Shown here piece after piece: positions 25,258-60,086 of a DNA stretch of 64,000 bases. The translations under genes and the position numbers were made by a program. The first letter of the stretch is position 1. Each line of letters starts with the position of its first letter. Under the pieces are notes generated by a model. The model saw only the letters and a program-made list of their open reading frames with translations, had not been told where the DNA came from and did not search any database. Source of the stretch: a virus (lineage: Duplodnaviria; Caudoviricetes); IMG/VR virus record IMGVR_UViG_3300032236_001024, positions 96,001-160,000 of that record; one strand, 5' to 3'.

Positions 25258-28157
25258 CTTCCGTTATTATACAACATATGAATTCCACCATTATTGATCG
25301 TCAATATGAACCCTGAAGGATCGTTGTCTACATTTCCAGAAACAGTGATTGGGTTGTTGATGCAGTTGCCAGATTCATCTTTTATTATTAAGTTTCTTCC
25401 TGAAGTTGTCGATGATGGTAATGTTACAGTAACTGCACCATTTAGGTTTATACCAACATAATAGTCAGAATCAAGTATCGTATAGTTACTTGATGTTACT
25501 GTTTTCGCATTGACTACATTTGTGTTGGCCCAATATACCACCGTGCCATTTGATGAAAGAACTTGTCCTGCCTTCCCAATAGACCCATTTGCAGTGATAG
25601 TTTTTGTTGTAATATTATTTGGCACAGTAATACCAGTAGAATCAATAAAAGCAGATGTTTGAATTACATTGCTGTTTAGCGGTGTTGTTTGAAATGAAAT
25701 TCTAGTACCAGCTGCATTACTGTTAAAATCTTGTGCAGCTTCAAAGTTTATTCTTACAATAGTACCAATAAATTGATTGGTATTATTAGTCCAACCCTGT
25801 GATGTTAAACGTAATAGTGTATCATTGTTAGCAGTAGGGAGAGGAGTATCTACTGTTCCTCTTGCTGCTCTAGTTGCAATTGATCCATACGTACCAGTAC
25901 CAAATGAGTCAATACTAATACGTGCTGGCTGACCATTTTGTGCAGTTGCCTGTAATAATGTTCCAGTAAAATTACGAGGCTGTTCATAACCGGAAGATGT
26001 GCCTACTATAGAAACTGCTGATTCTGAATTTAATATAGTATCAGGCGTATTAATAGTTATTCTACCACTTCTAGTAATTGCAAATGTTGTTTTTCCAGTA
26101 TCATAACTTTTAACAGAAATTGGTCTGTTAAATACAACATTACCCGTTGCTAGTGTTGTGCCAAATAAAATATCTCTTGCATTATTAGCAATTGCAATTT
26201 GATTATCACGAAGCGTGAATTCACCTACTTTAATACCTGCAGAACCAGTAATATAGAGAAGGTTATTTGCAGCACCAATACCTATATCAGTTCCTTTTAC
26301 TTCATCTAGAACATAGATCGTATTAGCACCAAAGTACGCACCTTTAAATCTCTTAGTTGGTGATCCAAGATATACGCCTTGATCTGTATAAGGAACAATA
26401 TCAGCATGAGGAACAATAAATCCACCAGGCCCTGGATTTAAAGTAATATCTGTATTTGCTCTTGTTGTAATTGCAAGACCAGCATTAACAATAGCTCTAA
26501 CAACATACATGTATTGTAGAGGTTGAGGCCATGCTGTTTGACTTATATCACCTATTGAAGTATTAGCAATTACAATTGCTGCATTTGCACCTGTTCCAAT
26601 CCATTTAACGCCAGAAAATACTGGAACACCTGCACCAGAAATAACATCATTTATCTCTAATACTGGATCAGGATTGGTTGTAAACTTATAAACTGTCCAT
26701 GGGTGAGGTATACCGTTCCTTAATCCATAATCACCAATATTAAGATTATCACCTACACCTGTTGATGTATCGACGATGCTATCTAATATTAAAGGCGCAA
26801 CAATAACTTCTACTGTATTTGCACCAGAAATAATTGTACCTGTAGGAATGTTTACAGTTTGTACATAAGCATTGGCCCAGCTATAAGATGTATTACCTAG
26901 ATTGTAGGTGTATGTGCTATTGGGAATGATATTAGAAGGCACATGCAGCAAATCTGTTATTACCGAATGCCCAGAAGAATTCTGAATATCTCCACCTTGT
27001 GGAAGTGTAAATACTCCATTATTATCAAAACTATATGTGTTTGATCCAACATCTATATTAAGAGAATCAGATGCATGGATATGGAACCCCATAGTTCCTT
27101 CTATGTATTGTTCAGGATTAGCAGAATTAAATATAATCTTACCATGTTCTGGAAGTGTCAATACACTATCAGTTCCAAATGTCCAAAGTGAACTTGCCGA
27201 TAGAATATCAATATTAGCAGAACTTTGAATTCTAGCATTTTTACTTTCAGTATTATTTGCACTAGGTAAATTAAGTTGACCAGTGGTTGCAAGAATTACT
27301 TCATAACCATTTGCAACTAATCTATCTGGTGTGGGTGTGTTCCAATAAATTGATGATCCATTCGATGTTAGTACTTGACCATTATTACCAAACGATCCAT
27401 TAGCTTCTATTCCACCACCATCTAAAATTAAACTATCAGCATAAACATTTGCCCAATAATCAGTAGGTGAACCAATATTATAAACGCCATTAGCTCCAGG
27501 GGTTAATTGTTGATCTATATGACTAAGATCAACATTACCTTCTGCAATTTGAGAAAAAATAAATTTTTTCGTGCTATTATCATATGTGAGAAAGTGACCT
27601 TGCCTAATACTAGAACGATCAATATCATCTAGATAACGAAGATTGACTTCACCACCACCATGACTACTACCAGCAAGAGCGATCTTTCTTGATTGATCAT
27701 GTACAAGCTTGTGGAAGTCAGCCACACTCTTTTTAATAACTTCTATTTCTTTGCGAAGAGAAGCATTAATTAAATCTGCTTCTGTTTTCTTTCCATCTTC
27801 TGGAACATTAGTAGCAGATACTGCCTGTGATACAAGATTAGCTACTTCTAATACAGGAGGTTCGACTACAACTTCTTTAACGACAGGTTCTGATATCGTC
27901 TCTATATGAACAATTGGTGTCTCAACGATAATCTGTGGTGCTTTCTTGATAAACTCATCAGGAAGTTTGATTTGTTTTGGAGGTTGAATTTCTTCTTTAA
28001 TCTTTATTTCAAAGTCAGCTTTTTTTGATAAGGCTGCGCCAAAACTCTTAAGAAGACGTTCTTCTTTAAGTCTCTTTTCTTCAATCTTCTTAAGTTCTTC
28101 TTGTGCAGAAGAACCTAAAATTTTAGCAAAGTGTTCAAGAAATTTCTTTTCGTCCAT
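25242..28157 (-). CDS. tail-fibre-like virion protein
   Basis: GGGEVNLRYLDD, repeated YNIGSPT.YWANVY / NGS.G..GQVL.SNG blocks, C-terminal YTILDSDYYVG...IKDESG. Confidence 0.65.
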   Translation of the reverse strand: MDEKKFLEHFAKILGSSAQEELKKIEEKRLKEERLLKSFGAALSKKADFEIKIKEEIQPPKQIKLPDEFIKKAPQIIVETPIVHIETISEPVVKEVVVEPPVLEVANLVSQAVSATNVPEDGKKTEADLINASLRKEIEVIKKSVADFHKLVHDQSRKIALAGSSHGGGEVNLRYLDDIDRSSIRQGHFLTYDNSTKKFIFSQIAEGNVDLSHIDQQLTPGANGVYNIGSPTDYWANVYADSLILDGGGIEANGSFGNNGQVLTSNGSSIYWNTPTPDRLVANGYEVILATTGQLNLPSANNTESKNARIQSSANIDILSASSLWTFGTDSVLTLPEHGKIIFNSANPEQYIEGTMGFHIHASDSLNIDVGSNTYSFDNNGVFTLPQGGDIQNSSGHSVITDLLHVPSNIIPNSTYTYNLGNTSYSWANAYVQTVNIPTGTIISGANTVEVIVAPLILDSIVDTSTGVGDNLNIGDYGLRNGIPHPWTVYKFTTNPDPVLEINDVISGAGVPVFSGVKWIGTGANAAIVIANTSIGDISQTAWPQPLQYMYVVRAIVNAGLAITTRANTDITLNPGPGGFIVPHADIVPYTDQGVYLGSPTKRFKGAYFGANTIYVLDEVKGTDIGIGAANNLLYITGSAGIKVGEFTLRDNQIAIANNARDILFGTTLATGNVVFNRPISVKSYDTGKTTFAITRSGRITINTPDTILNSESAVSIVGTSSGYEQPRNFTGTLLQATAQNGQPARISIDSFGTGTYGSIATRAARGTVDTPLPTANNDTLLRLTSQGWTNNTNQFIGTIVRINFEAAQDFNSNAAGTRISFQTTPLNSNVIQTSAFIDSTGITVPNNITTKTITANGSIGKAGQVLSSNGTVVYWANTNVVNAKTVTSSNYTILDSDYYVGINLNGAVTVTLPSSTTSGRNLIIKDESGNCINNPITVSGNVDNDPSGFILTINNGGIHMLYNNGSWRII

Positions 28158-58138: not shown

Positions 58139-58216
58139 TGGAGGGGAAGATGGGAGTCGAACCCACCTAAAAAGGTTTTGCAGACCTTGCCATAACCGCT
58201 CTGGACTCACTTCCCC
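58139..58216 (-). tRNA. tRNA-Cys(GCA)
   Basis: AAGGT-CTGCAAA-ACCTT, U discriminator, CCA. Confidence 0.85.
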
Positions 58217-58226
58217 GTATAAATGA

Positions 58227-58299
58227 TGGTGGAGTAAGTGGGACTCGAACCCACCTCAGATTCCTTGCAAAGGATTCCTGCTTGCCCTGAGCCTACCCC
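58227..58299 (-). tRNA. tRNA-Ala(TGC), atypical D arm
   Basis: G3:U70 pair, TTTGCAA loop, GTGGG-TTCGAGT-CCCAC, ACCA. Confidence 0.65.
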
Positions 58300-58308
58300 A
58301 ATTCTTAT

Positions 58309-59739
58309 TTAGTAATCGTAACGCTCATTCATGATAGTCTTGAGCATGATTGCTTCTGGAGTGAAATCATCCATATCAGCTGCAAGAACTGACTTGACGA
58401 TTGCAGGAGAGAAACCAGAAACAAGAGCAGCACCACGAGTATCATACTTCACAGGTACGTTGTCGTTAGCATTAAGGTTCCAGAAGATGATATTAGGCAC
58501 CTTATAACCAGCTTCAGTATACTTGCGAGCAATCATTTCCATTGCAGAATCATCATGGTGAGTGCACTGATCAAACTGCATATCAGAAAGGATCAACAAA
58601 GCTTCAGGCATTTCCTCTTGAGGAACATTACCATTCTTTGCAACAACAAGGATATTATCCAAAGCCATATGAAGATTGGTGTTCATTTCCCACTTCGAAG
58701 TCACCATCTGCTTGATCTTGTCGAGGATGTTGCCACGAAGATTAAGCAACTGAGGCTGTGAAGAAAACGTTAGGAACGTATCTTTGAACTTACCTTTGTT
58801 CTTGTCAGCAAGATACAGACCCAGTGAGACTGCAACTTCAAGACAAGTTACAGTAGACTTCGACTGCCAACCACCAGCTTTTGTAGTCATTGATCCAGAA
58901 ACGTCAACTAGAGGAAGGATGTTAGCATCGCCAATATAGTTAGGCAAAGCTTCCCACTGAGCAAGGATATGATTCAAATTATGCTGATCATAATGATCAT
59001 AATGATTAATCATACCCTTCAGCACATCATAAGGATACACTGCACCAGCGTTAACCTTGACTTCCTTCTTGACTTCAGGATCAGTCGAAACGAGAGCAGC
59101 AGTCCATTCCTTATACTTTTCAGTATGACGAGAGAACGCCTTCTTATAACGACCAGAAGCAACAGAAGGAACATGGTTGAAGTTGATGTTATCCCAATCA
59201 TTGGCGCACATCTGAGTTTCAACAACCTTAGTCAGTTCAACCAGACGTTTACGATAGAACTTAGGAGTCCAACCAAGGTGGTTACGAAGCTTCACAGCTA
59301 CTTCACCTTGACGAGGCATCCACTTAGCACAGAGACCATTTGAATCCTCAAGGGCATAACGAATTTGTTCAAACGCATAGTATTCAGCACGAGTGCCAAC
59401 AAGAACCAACAGATCATCCCAGCGTCCAAGTTCAGGAACCTTACGCATCATAATCATACAATAGTCCAAATCTTCCTTAGCGAGATCAACAAGGATATCA
59501 CGAAAAATCTTGCGTTCTCCTGCACCTCCACGAACGTCACGAGCCCAAAGTGCAACACGAGTTGCAAGATCAAGGTTCTCAACACGAGCAGCAGTCCATG
59601 AAGGAATTACATCCTTGCCACGCATAGCACCAATCTTAAAGAAAAGATCAGTAACTGCGTTGGCAGTGGACTTACGAGCCTTCATACCATTCTGGGTACG
59701 AACCTCTTGATTGATTACAGCATTCACGAAGGTATTCAT
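58309..59739 (-). CDS. DUF2828 (TROVE-like + vWA) protein
   Basis: RDVRGGAGER, GRWDDL, AKWMPR, VDVSGSM MIDAS, LSDMQFD, IIFWNL, VSGFSP. Confidence 0.85.
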   Translation of the reverse strand: MNTFVNAVINQEVRTQNGMKARKSTANAVTDLFFKIGAMRGKDVIPSWTAARVENLDLATRVALWARDVRGGAGERKIFRDILVDLAKEDLDYCMIMMRKVPELGRWDDLLVLVGTRAEYYAFEQIRYALEDSNGLCAKWMPRQGEVAVKLRNHLGWTPKFYRKRLVELTKVVETQMCANDWDNINFNHVPSVASGRYKKAFSRHTEKYKEWTAALVSTDPEVKKEVKVNAGAVYPYDVLKGMINHYDHYDQHNLNHILAQWEALPNYIGDANILPLVDVSGSMTTKAGGWQSKSTVTCLEVAVSLGLYLADKNKGKFKDTFLTFSSQPQLLNLRGNILDKIKQMVTSKWEMNTNLHMALDNILVVAKNGNVPQEEMPEALLILSDMQFDQCTHHDDSAMEMIARKYTEAGYKVPNIIFWNLNANDNVPVKYDTRGAALVSGFSPAIVKSVLAADMDDFTPEAIMLKTIMNERYDY

Positions 59740-59756
59740 TTCACTTTCTCCTTTTC

Positions 59757-60045
59757 TACAGATTCAACTTTTGTTTGTTTTCAAGACAAATTTTGGTTTG
59801 TTGCGGAACTGAATCTAAACTCAACAGGATACACTTACTGTGGATTCGAACCACTAAGTCTGATTAAAAGTCAGATTGATAACCAATATCAAGTAATTGT
59901 TTGCTGAAGGTATCCTAAAACTCAACAGACTGACCCCTACTTTCATTTTTTTATAGTGGATTTCATCGAAACATAACCACTTTGATTGCCTGTGGGGCAA
60001 TTACCTAGCTTTTTTGATAGGTTTATGCTGAATAGTCAATCTAAA
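59757..60045 (-). ncRNA. array of three structured RNA units with tRNA-arm mimics
   Basis: Covarying closing stems, shared TTC(A/C)GCA motif and CTGTTGAG-TTT(T)AG linkers; inserts contain anticodon-like arms. Confidence 0.7.
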
Positions 60046-60057
60046 TTCTATTAACGT

Positions 60058-60086
60058 ATATTAAAGCATTCTCGACACAGTGTCAA
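60058..60086 (-). promoter_or_regulatory. sigma70 promoter for RNA array/DUF2828
   Basis: TTGACA-N17-TAATAT ending about 13 nt before the first unit. Confidence 0.7.

What the first reader, a model, noticed from the sequence alone, without database searches (positions are those of the whole stretch)
58309..60086. Candidate new RNP system: promoter-led array of covarying RNA units feeding a TROVE-like/vWA (DUF2828) gene
Seen on the minus strand: a TTGACA-N17-TAATAT promoter, then three back-to-back units, each TTT-AG[stem]-NTTC(A/C)GCA-[variable insert]-[stem']CT-GT(T/A)GA. The stems differ yet pair: AGATTGAC/GTCAGTCT (60042-60035/59934-59927), AGGATAC/GTATCCT (59916-59910/59832-59826), AGATTCA/TGAATCT (59816-59810/59766-59760). 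The last unit ends at the RBS of DUF2828. Ro60/TROVE proteins bind Y RNAs, and bacterial Y RNAs mimic tRNA (established). Inference: these are modular Y-like RNAs, with a constant protein-binding frame and swappable tRNA-like payloads, acting as anticodon-nuclease decoys, RNA-repair adaptors or an autoregulatory leader.
Basis: partly seen in the sequence, partly recalled or inferred. Interest (0 to 1): 0.88.

Follow-up and report, generated by a model that had tools for sequence, protein, structure and literature searches.

The report
Y-RNA-like array before phage Ro60-like gene
Three small structured RNAs sharing one conserved "handle" sit in a row in front of a phage gene for a Ro60-shaped RNA-binding protein; this uncatalogued RNA family accompanies that protein in many phages and looks strikingly like the orphan Class I RNAs of social amoebae.

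Summary
On the minus strand, 59754-60045 holds three back-to-back units. Each has a 7-bp closing helix (5' AG..., 3' ...CU), three bases, an unpaired C(A/C)GCA(A/U) core, a variable insert, and G(U) after the helix.

A covariance model built from short units finds only these three in the 202-kb phage genome. In 80 related viral contigs it finds 145 copies, 144 of them on the gene's strand. The helix pairs in 99.7% of cells, with 201 double-sided changes. In 64 of 77 loci a unit ends 7-23 nt before the start codon.

The gene (Pfam DUF2828 + DUF7788) folds like Ro60 (TROVE ring plus vWA). Inserts vary: unit 2 holds a tRNA-Lys(UUU)-like cloverleaf, and some relatives hold YrlA-like permuted tRNA mimics.

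So this is a divergent Ro60/Y-RNA system with a different handle. No Rfam family reaches threshold on it, and I found no paper describing it. It is not a categorically new RNP.

Binding, processing and function are inferred. A 37%-identical homolog, Bas63 gp130, counters the Ppl defence.

The handle matches Dictyostelium Class I RNAs (stem, CAGCAA, CUGU), repeatedly but below Rfam's threshold.

This scan has noted the same family before on other DNA: 128 notes in at least 104 genomes.

The parts
60058..60086 (-). Promoter-like site TTGACA-17 nt-TAATAT, overlapping the stop codon of the upstream 77-aa ORF
   Evidence: 10 of 12 matches, the best in the region, but the count of such sites is not above shuffles. 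It is not conserved as such in L002, where a tRNA directly precedes the array.
59921..60045 (-). Unit 1: closing helix 60042-60035 / 59934-59927, core CAGCAU 60030-60025, about 90-nt insert with three hairpins, one of them T-arm-like (GUGG...CCAC)
   Evidence: fold -26.8 kcal/mol, z -2.6. R1 gives 15.6 bits. A homologous unit lies at L002:2442-2570.
59820..59919 (-). Unit 2: closing helix 59916-59910 / 59832-59826, core CAGCAA 59906-59901, insert 59831-59899 = tRNA-Lys(UUU)-like cloverleaf without discriminator or CCA, its acceptor helix running into the closing helix
   Evidence: R1 38.5 bits. Rfam tRNA 30.8 bits in the sensitive search only; not called by ARAGORN. L002:2671-2769 keeps it with a compensatory T-stem change. 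A genuine tRNA-Lys(UUU) lies elsewhere in the genome and is not a recent paralog.
59754..59819 (-). Unit 3 (gene-proximal, minimal): closing helix 59816-59810 / 59766-59760, variant core CCGCAA 59806-59801, small hairpin insert with the sequence CUUGAAA, 3' tail running into the ribosome-binding site
   Evidence: R1 60.8 bits. The same unit sits in the same place in L002, L003 and L026. In 64 of 77 related loci a unit ends 7-23 nt before the ATG.
59737..59753 (-). Shine-Dalgarno AAGGAG (59753-59748) and start codon (59739-59737) of the Ro60-like gene
   Evidence: Read from the sequence. The ORF is listed.
58309..59739 (-). Gene for a 476-aa Ro60-like protein (DUF2828 + DUF7788; helical ring plus vWA domain with invariant DxSxS...T...D MIDAS residues)
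   Evidence: Pfam DUF7788 6.9e-48 and DUF2828 2.2e-14. PHROG 850 'RNA-binding protein', full length. AF2 model pLDDT 73. Foldseek top hits are Ro60 of Thermus phage phiLo, Xenopus, Deinococcus and human, probability 1.0, over the full length. Invariant residues are listed.

Best explanation
The three units are members of a widespread, uncatalogued family of Y-RNA-like small RNAs. They travel with the Ro60-like (DUF2828/DUF7788) protein of tailed phages.

Shown:
- A conserved frame. It is a 7-bp closing helix with nearly fixed A-U, G-C and U-A pairs at positions 1, 2 and 5, then three bases, an unpaired CAGCAA core, and a fixed G after the helix.
- The frame surrounds inserts that differ freely: small hairpins, tRNA-like cloverleaves, YrlA-like permuted tRNA mimics, and inserts over 200 nt.
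- The units lie on the strand of the Ro60-like gene, usually in an array just upstream.

Inferred:
- The frame is the handle bound by the Ro60-like protein, as Ro60/Rsr binds the conserved stem of Y RNAs.
- The inserts are effector or mimic modules that bring tRNA-recognising enzymes or nucleases to the particle, or distract them.
- The array is transcribed with the gene (own promoter or read-through from the tRNA cluster) and cut into single RNAs.
- The last unit, whose 3' strand lies 14-22 nt before the ATG, lets the protein repress its own translation.
- The particle probably acts on RNA metabolism and counter-defence early in infection, because a homolog (Bas63 gp130) counters the Ppl defence system.
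For: Frame and covariation:
- 145 model hits in 582 kb of related loci, 144 on the gene's strand.
- 99.7% of cells paired, 201 cells changed on both sides, slid controls 30-37%.
- The consensus has invariant G5, U8, C17, G19, C20, A169, C172 and G174; A21 is nearly invariant (92 of 93).

Specificity:
- Only these three units in the 202-kb genome.

Linkage:
- 64 of 77 loci have a unit ending 7-23 nt before the ATG; 135 units lie upstream and 6 downstream.
- Units are also found beside the homologous gene in cultured phages of unrelated hosts whose other neighbours differ: Aeromonas LAh_8, Synechococcus BUCT-ZZ01, Listeria A511, E. coli LinBro and Bas63, and Mycobacterium Nicholas.

Protein:
- Ro60 fold over the full length.

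Inserts:
- tRNA 30.8 bits; YrlA 36.9 and 37.9 bits. In mycobacteriophage Nicholas the YrlA-like element sits inside a CAGCAA frame.

Precedent:
- Ro60/Rsr binds adjacent Y RNAs, also in phages (PMC4201824; PMC12135203).

Function of a homolog:
- bas63_0130 (gp130), 37% identical, counters Ppl.
- The A511/P100-type homolog CKA15_055 is present in virions.
Against: - There are no expression, processing or binding data for this phage. Only DNA runs hold the sequence.
- gp130 expressed alone rescues T7 on a Ppl strain, so at least that activity does not need the phage's own RNAs.
- No unit was found within 3 kb of the gene in Vibrio CZ01, Staphylococcus S-CoN_Ph7 or Sinorhizobium phiM7. Campylobacter F360 and Enterococcus EFDG1 gave only weak hits.
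- The handle differs from the known Ro60 binding motifs (GGUCCGA, GNCGAA), so the analogy is architectural.
- The promoter match is not statistically distinguished.
- Unit 1 scores only 15.6 bits.
Confidence: 0.65

Rival explanations
1. The units are purely cis-acting leader elements of the DUF2828 mRNA, giving translational or stability control. They are not separate trans-acting RNAs.
For: The gene-proximal unit is the most constant feature: 64 of 77 loci, ending 7-23 nt before the ATG. In the window the Shine-Dalgarno follows the helix by 6 nt.
Against: Units also lie downstream of the gene, or kilobases away inside tRNA arrays (L055:4465-4533, L017, L019, LinBro L089:4883-4938, Bas63 L097:4379-4445, Nicholas L088:4480-4750). 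Arrays hold up to about 8 units with tRNA-like inserts, which a leader does not need.
Confidence: 0.12
2. The frame is a processing signal (punctuation) read by a host or phage ribonuclease to release cargo RNAs from tRNA-cluster transcripts. It works independently of the Ro60-like protein.
For: The units abut each other and tRNA genes. The junction sequence (CUGUUGAG-UUUAG) is conserved. All 21 ARAGORN-called tRNA genes lie on this strand.
Against: The family follows one protein gene across hosts from Actinobacteria to Cyanobacteria, whose ribonucleases differ. The only constant neighbour is the Ro60-like gene. The own genome has 21 tRNAs but only three frames, all at this gene.
Confidence: 0.13
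3. The units are decayed tRNA genes or neutral repeats with no function of their own.
For: Unit 2 contains a tRNA-like cloverleaf and unit 1 a T-arm-like hairpin.
Against: Compensatory changes keep the closing helix in 93 distinct copies. An unpaired hexamer is invariant. The strand bias is 144 to 1. The tRNA-like insert is not a recent copy of the phage's tRNA-Lys.
Confidence: 0.03

Closest known systems
Bacterial and phage Rsr (Ro60) with YrlA/YrlB Y RNAs (Chen et al. 2014, PMC4201824; Rfam RF02553)
   Same: A Ro60-fold protein is encoded next to, and on the same strand as, small RNAs whose 5' and 3' ends pair. At least one of them carries a tRNA-like domain. Mycobacteriophage 'Ro-like' proteins are full-length homologs of the window protein (31-32% identity), and their YrlA-like element sits inside a CAGCAA frame.
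   Different: The handle is AG-helix-NWW-CAGCAA...helix-CUG, not GNCGAA(N)G. The protein matches Pfam DUF2828/DUF7788, not TROVE. There are arrays of up to about 8 units with many insert types. No window unit reaches RF02553. The window's tRNA-like insert is in the normal D-anticodon-T order, not permuted.
Thermus phage phiLo Ro60 with Yrl1/Yrl2 (PMC12135203; PDB 9KOP, 9L5Y)
   Same: A phage Ro60-fold protein with two Y-like RNAs just upstream of its gene. It is the best structural match of the window protein (E 9e-8, TM 0.58-0.60).
   Different: The phiLo RNAs were picked by a CGAA motif in an internal bulge. The window RNAs have none at the handle. Sequence identity of the proteins is about 15%.
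Dictyostelid Class I RNAs (Rfam RF01414; Kjellin et al. 2021, PMC7919456)
   Same: The layout is the same: (A)AG start, a short terminal helix kept by compensatory changes, an unpaired CAGCAA a few bases after the 5' strand, a variable middle, CUGU right after the 3' strand, about 60 nt for the minimal form, and occasional long inserts. RF01414 hits 9 phage units at 21-29.6 bits and nothing else in the stretches searched.
   Different: All scores are below the gathering score of 41.5. The spacer between helix and CAGCAA is one base shorter. [quoted passage not shown] Whether Dictyostelia have a DUF2828/Ro60-like protein could not be tested here.
Bas63 (Escherichia phage JohannRWettstein) gp130, anti-Ppl counter-defence protein (bioRxiv 10.1101/2024.10.10.617714)
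   Same: Same protein family (bas63_0130, 37% identity over 97% of the length). The authors noted its Ro60-like fold and guessed that some neighbouring 'tRNA' genes are Y RNAs. Model R2 finds a unit between its tRNA genes.
   Different: In Bas63 the units lie downstream, inside the tRNA array. The counter-defence activity was shown for the protein alone. No such test exists for the window phage.

Membership tests
Ro60 / TROVE proteins | Ring of HEAT-like helical repeats followed by a vWA domain with a MIDAS site | tested here: met
   The AF2 model matches Ro60 chains over the full length with probability 1.0. DxSxS (279-283), T354 and D386 are invariant in 20 homologs.
Ro60 / TROVE proteins | Sequence match to Pfam TROVE (PF05731) or to solved Ro60 sequences | tested here: not met
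   Pfam gives only DUF7788 and DUF2828. phmmer against PDB sequences finds no Ro60.
Ro60 / TROVE proteins | Binds Y RNAs on its outer surface and misfolded RNA ends in its cavity | not testable with these tools
   Needs biochemistry.
YrlA (Rfam RF02553) | Score at or above the family's gathering score (69 bits) | tested here: not met
   No YrlA hit in the window, even at E up to 10. Relatives reach 36.9 bits (L002) and 37.9 bits (Nicholas).
YrlA (Rfam RF02553) | GNCGAA(N)G motif near the 5' end (putative Rsr site) | tested here: not met
   Read from the sequence. The 5' sides of the units carry NWW-C(A/C)GCA(A/U) instead.
YrlA (Rfam RF02553) | Permuted tRNA-like domain (T arm, acceptor-like hairpin, D arm) | tested here: not met
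   Window unit 2 has the normal D-anticodon-T order. Permuted domains occur in relatives (L002:2271-2391, L017:467-586).
Dictyostelid Class I RNA (Rfam RF01414) | Score at or above the gathering score (41.5 bits) | tested here: not met
   Window unit 2 scores 22 bits. The best phage unit scores 29.6 bits.
Dictyostelid Class I RNA (Rfam RF01414) | 5' (A)AG, 6-bp covarying terminal helix, unpaired motif with core CAGCAA, 3' CUGU | tested here: met
   Phage consensus; Class I description and sequences. The spacer is one base shorter in phages.
Dictyostelid Class I RNA (Rfam RF01414) | Own gene with a DUSE promoter about 60 nt upstream; found in Dictyostelia | tested here: not met
   The units are in a phage, abut one another, and share at most one promoter-like site.
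tRNA (RF00005) | Cloverleaf with a free acceptor end (discriminator, CCA addable), called by tRNA finders | tested here: not met
   The unit 2 insert scores 30.8 bits only in the sensitive search and is absent from the gathering run and from ARAGORN. Its acceptor helix continues into the closing helix without a free 3' end.

The most novel reading that the evidence does not exclude
The CAGCAA-handle RNAs of phages and the Class I RNAs of dictyostelid amoebae, reported as unique to that group, are one RNA class. They would be either homologous or converged on the same protein-binding handle. If so, the long-sought core partner of Class I RNAs would be a Ro60-like/DUF7788-type protein, or conversely the handle would be read by a shared kind of binder. 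Class I RNAs would then be the amoebal counterpart of Y RNAs.
Probability: 0.3. Interest if true: 0.85.

Novelty: new variant of a known kind. Interest (0 to 1): 0.68.

Why it matters
Ro60 and its Y RNAs are a conserved but poorly understood RNA-surveillance particle, and a human autoantigen. This work points to a large, unannotated phage branch of that system. The protein occurs in 711 cultured phage records, among them Felix O1-like, A511/P100-like and mycobacterial phages used in the laboratory and in biocontrol.

The RNAs have a simple handle that can be mutated, and inserts that can be exchanged. One family member already has a phenotype, anti-Ppl counter-defence. That makes the role of Y-like RNAs directly testable in easy phage-host pairs.

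Annotation would also improve, because these RNAs are now hidden in 'non-coding gaps' or called as small ORFs.

If the match to Class I RNAs reflects common descent or a common binder, it would give a first mechanistic lead for an abundant amoebal RNA class whose function has been open since 2004.

Tried and rejected
- **Pseudoknot.** I tested pairing between UUCAGCA and the 3' tail UGUUGAG. It is possible in window units 1 and 2, but only 57% of cells pair across the family and C17-N177 pairs in only 27%. Rejected as a family feature.
- **Known Rfam family for the units.** None reaches its gathering score. Sub-threshold hits explain only the inserts (tRNA, YrlA) or resemble the frame (Class I).
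- **RNA-repair context.** The genome has no RtcB and no PF09414-type RNA ligase. The search for T4 Rnl1-type ligase was uninformative, since nothing rang even in the controls. The neighbours are sugar, redox and oxygenase genes.
- **Expression evidence.** Only DNA metagenome runs from freshwater hold the sequence, and no RNA runs do.
- **Unit 2 insert as a copy of the phage's own tRNA-Lys(UUU).** There is no close paralog. Identity is 56%, no higher than to other tRNAs, although the anticodon loop and flanking bases (11 nt) are identical.
- **A DUF2828/Ro60-like protein in Dictyostelium.** Foldseek against Swiss-Prot shows none. The AFDB cluster rows hide organisms. The protein atlas shows only viral clusters. 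A motif search in the partial proteomes supplied with PMC7919456 hit only an unrelated vWA protein. Left open.
- **Anticodon-loop mimicry by the short inserts.** Of 9 seven-base hairpin loops, 8 have U at position 2. Most gene-proximal units have 9-base loops. The idea is suggestive for a subset only.
Full report
**What is there**

On the minus strand, the 293 nt between a promoter-like site and the start of ORF 58309-59739 consist of three abutting units. Each has this order:
- UUU, then AG opening a 7-8-bp helix;
- three bases;
- C(A/C)GCA(A/U);
- an insert of about 30, 69 or 90 nt;
- the returning helix strand ending in CU;
- G-U-(U/A)-G-A.

Unit 3 ends 6 nt before the AAGGAG that serves the ATG at 59739. 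TTGACA-17-TAATAT at 60086-60058 is the best sigma-70-like match nearby, but such matches are no more frequent here than in shuffled sequence.

**Is it more than chance?**

I collected 80 viral contigs that encode relatives of the protein (61-86% identity). The same frame stood upstream of the gene in many of them, with different helix sequences.

A covariance model (R1) was built from 18 short units, with only the closing helix as structure.
- In the window it scores the three units 60.8, 38.5 and 15.6 bits.
- Nothing else in the window or the whole 202-kb phage genome exceeds 16.7 bits.
- In the 582 kb of related loci it finds 145 matches at E <= 0.1. Of these, 144 are on the strand of the gene.

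On the 93 distinct copies:
- the helix is paired in 99.7% of cells;
- 201 cells are changed on both sides;
- versions of the structure slid by 1-3 columns pair in only 30-37%.

This alignment was fitted to the model, which favours pairing. The slid controls and the strand bias do not depend on that fitting.

The family consensus is UUU-A-G-R-W-U-N-N, N-W-W, C-A-G-C-A-A ... N-N-A-W-Y-C-U, G-U-U. The G-C and U-A pairs at helix positions 2 and 5, C, G and C of the CAGCAA core, and the G after the helix are invariant.

In 64 of 77 loci a unit ends 7-23 nt before the start codon. Loci hold 0-6 detected units within 3 kb, with 135 upstream and 6 downstream. The closest relative, L002, has seven or eight units where the window has three, so arrays gain and lose units.

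**The protein**

- Pfam gives DUF7788 (6.9e-48) and DUF2828 (2.2e-14), not TROVE.
- PHROG 850 'RNA-binding protein' matches end to end.
- An AlphaFold model from 20 homologs (pLDDT 73) matches Ro60 structures over its full length with probability 1.0. The matches are Thermus phage phiLo Ro60, Xenopus Ro60 with RNA, Deinococcus Rsr and human Ro60.
- The MIDAS residues of the vWA domain are invariant.

So it is a Ro60-shaped protein of a sequence family distinct from canonical TROVE.

tblastn finds full-length relatives in 711 cultured phage records. These include Felix O1-like coliphages, Listeria A511/P100-like, staphylococcal, enterococcal, campylobacter, vibrio and aeromonas phages. They also include the mycobacteriophages whose 'Ro-like RNA binding protein' was the phage example of Chen et al. 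2014.

**The inserts**

- Unit 2 encloses a 69-nt cloverleaf in the normal order, with the anticodon loop CUUUUAA (Rfam tRNA 30.8 bits in the sensitive search). It has no free acceptor end and is not called by ARAGORN.
- The phage has a genuine tRNA-Lys(UUU) elsewhere. The insert is not a recent copy of it, though 11 nt around the anticodon are identical.
- Relatives carry T arm - hairpin - D arm domains that hit Rfam YrlA at 36.9 bits (L002).
- Short units carry one small hairpin. Some have anticodon-loop-like 7-nt loops; most gene-proximal ones have 9-nt loops.

**Spread beyond the close relatives**

R1 and a broader model R2 find units beside the homologous gene in:
- Aeromonas phage LAh_8 (eight or nine units upstream);
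- Synechococcus phage BUCT-ZZ01;
- Listeria phage A511 (two units upstream of gp57);
- E. coli phages LinBro and Bas63 (inside the downstream tRNA array);
- Mycobacterium phage Nicholas.

In Nicholas the three units downstream of the gene read GUGGAC...-NNA-CAGCAA-...-GUCCAGU. The middle one encloses the element that Rfam scores as YrlA at 37.9 bits. The phage 'YrlA' of the literature thus appears to be one insert type within this frame.

No unit was found within 3 kb in Vibrio CZ01, Staphylococcus S-CoN_Ph7 or Sinorhizobium phiM7. Campylobacter F360 and Enterococcus EFDG1 gave only weak hits. The other neighbours of the gene differ from phage to phage. The Ro60-like gene is the only constant companion.

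**How it most likely works**

Shown: a conserved, covarying, strand-specific RNA frame linked to a Ro60-fold gene.

Inferred from the established behaviour of Ro60/Rsr, which binds the conserved terminal stem of Y RNAs encoded next to it, including in phages (PMC4201824; PMC12135203):
- the frame is the protein's handle;
- the inserts are effector or mimic modules;
- the last unit places its helix inside the ribosome's footprint at the start of the gene, which suits feedback repression.

Function: Bas63 gp130 is the homolog (bas63_0130, 37% identity). It is needed for normal plaques on cells carrying the Ppl defence gene, and it rescues T7 when supplied alone. The homolog of a P100-like Listeria phage is found in purified virions. 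A role early in infection in counter-defence or RNA control is therefore plausible. The gp130 result also shows that at least one activity does not need the phage's own RNAs.

The decoy and RNA-repair ideas remain untested. This genome has no RtcB and no PF09414-type RNA ligase; the search for T4 Rnl1-type ligase was uninformative. No RNA data exist for this phage.

**Comparison with what is known**

The closest system is Rsr/Ro60 with YrlA/YrlB. The differences are:
- the handle (no GNCGAA or CGAA motif);
- the protein's sequence family;
- the array architecture and the range of inserts.

No Rfam 15 family reaches its threshold on the units. I found no paper that describes the frame. Two papers only guess that Y RNAs lie near the gene.

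**The Class I resemblance**

The Rfam model of Dictyostelium Class I RNAs hits phage units and nothing else in the searched stretches:
- window unit 2, 22 bits;
- an L002 unit, 24.2 bits;
- six LAh_8 units, 21-29.6 bits, and one A511 unit, 23.1 bits.

All are below the gathering score of 41.5, and the hits are not independent of one another, because the units share a frame.

Class I RNAs are described as (A)AG, a 6-bp helix kept by compensatory changes, an unpaired CCUUACAGCAA, a variable middle and CUGU, about 60 nt long, and were reported as found only in Dictyostelia. By my count of the 37 curated D. discoideum sequences, 34 carry CAGCAA and 35 end in CUG. The phage frame has the same elements in the same order, with a spacer one base shorter.

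I noticed this before consulting earlier notes of this scan. I could not test whether Dictyostelia encode a Ro60-like or DUF7788 protein. I rate common descent or a common binder at about 0.3.

**Earlier notes of this scan**

The same RNA family beside DUF2828 genes has been noted in at least 104 other genomes, and the Class I resemblance in 27 findings. These are unchecked AI notes made with the same tools, so they are not independent support. One of them gave me the lead to the PhageMaP preprint, which I then read and tied to the window protein myself.

**Verdict**

The finding is a new variant of a known kind: a Ro60/Y-RNA system with a new handle, widespread and uncatalogued.

Noticed in passing
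window 58227-58299 (-): A 73-nt tRNA-like element lies 10 nt after the stop of the Ro60-like gene. Its acceptor helix has G3:U70 and an encoded ACCA end, with a normal T arm. A 7-pair 'anticodon' helix carries the loop UUUGCAA (UGC, Ala). ARAGORN misses it. The best Rfam hit is the tRNA-like domain of tmRNA (21.8 bits). It is 86% identical to unannotated DNA in Caulobacter phiCbK-like phages. It could be an odd tRNA-Ala or another partner RNA.
   Followed up: partly
window 58142-58216 (-): A tRNA with anticodon GCA (Cys) scores 38.9 bits in Rfam but is not called by ARAGORN. Its D arm carries a 3-nt insertion.
   Followed up: no
L087:1507-2058 (Listeria phage A511, record 26196-26747): A ROOL RNA match (87.5 bits, E 1e-16, just under the gathering score of 99.1) lies about 1 kb upstream of the Ro60-like gp57. 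By position it probably equals the hugely abundant, unexplained 'CKA15_059-061' transcript (26,236-26,727) of the related phage CKA15.
   Followed up: partly
L014:2664-2921, L054 and L072 (about 330 nt upstream of the gene): Some relatives have a frame-like 5' end (AGGATG-NTT-CAGCAA) followed by an insert of about 250 nt, before a matching 3' strand. These may be large-cargo units, and they were not analysed further.
   Followed up: no
window 40611-63184 and genome-wide: All 21 ARAGORN-called tRNA genes of the 202-kb phage lie on one strand, interleaved with auxiliary genes (FAD oxidoreductase, 2OG-Fe(II) oxygenase, epimerase, redoxin, glycosyltransferase). The sequence occurs in freshwater and lake metagenomes.
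   Followed up: no
window 59801-59806 and the gene-proximal units of L002, L003, L026: In this clade the gene-proximal unit has CCGCAA instead of CAGCAA, while the distal units keep CAGCAA. This could tune the affinity of an autoregulatory site.
   Followed up: no
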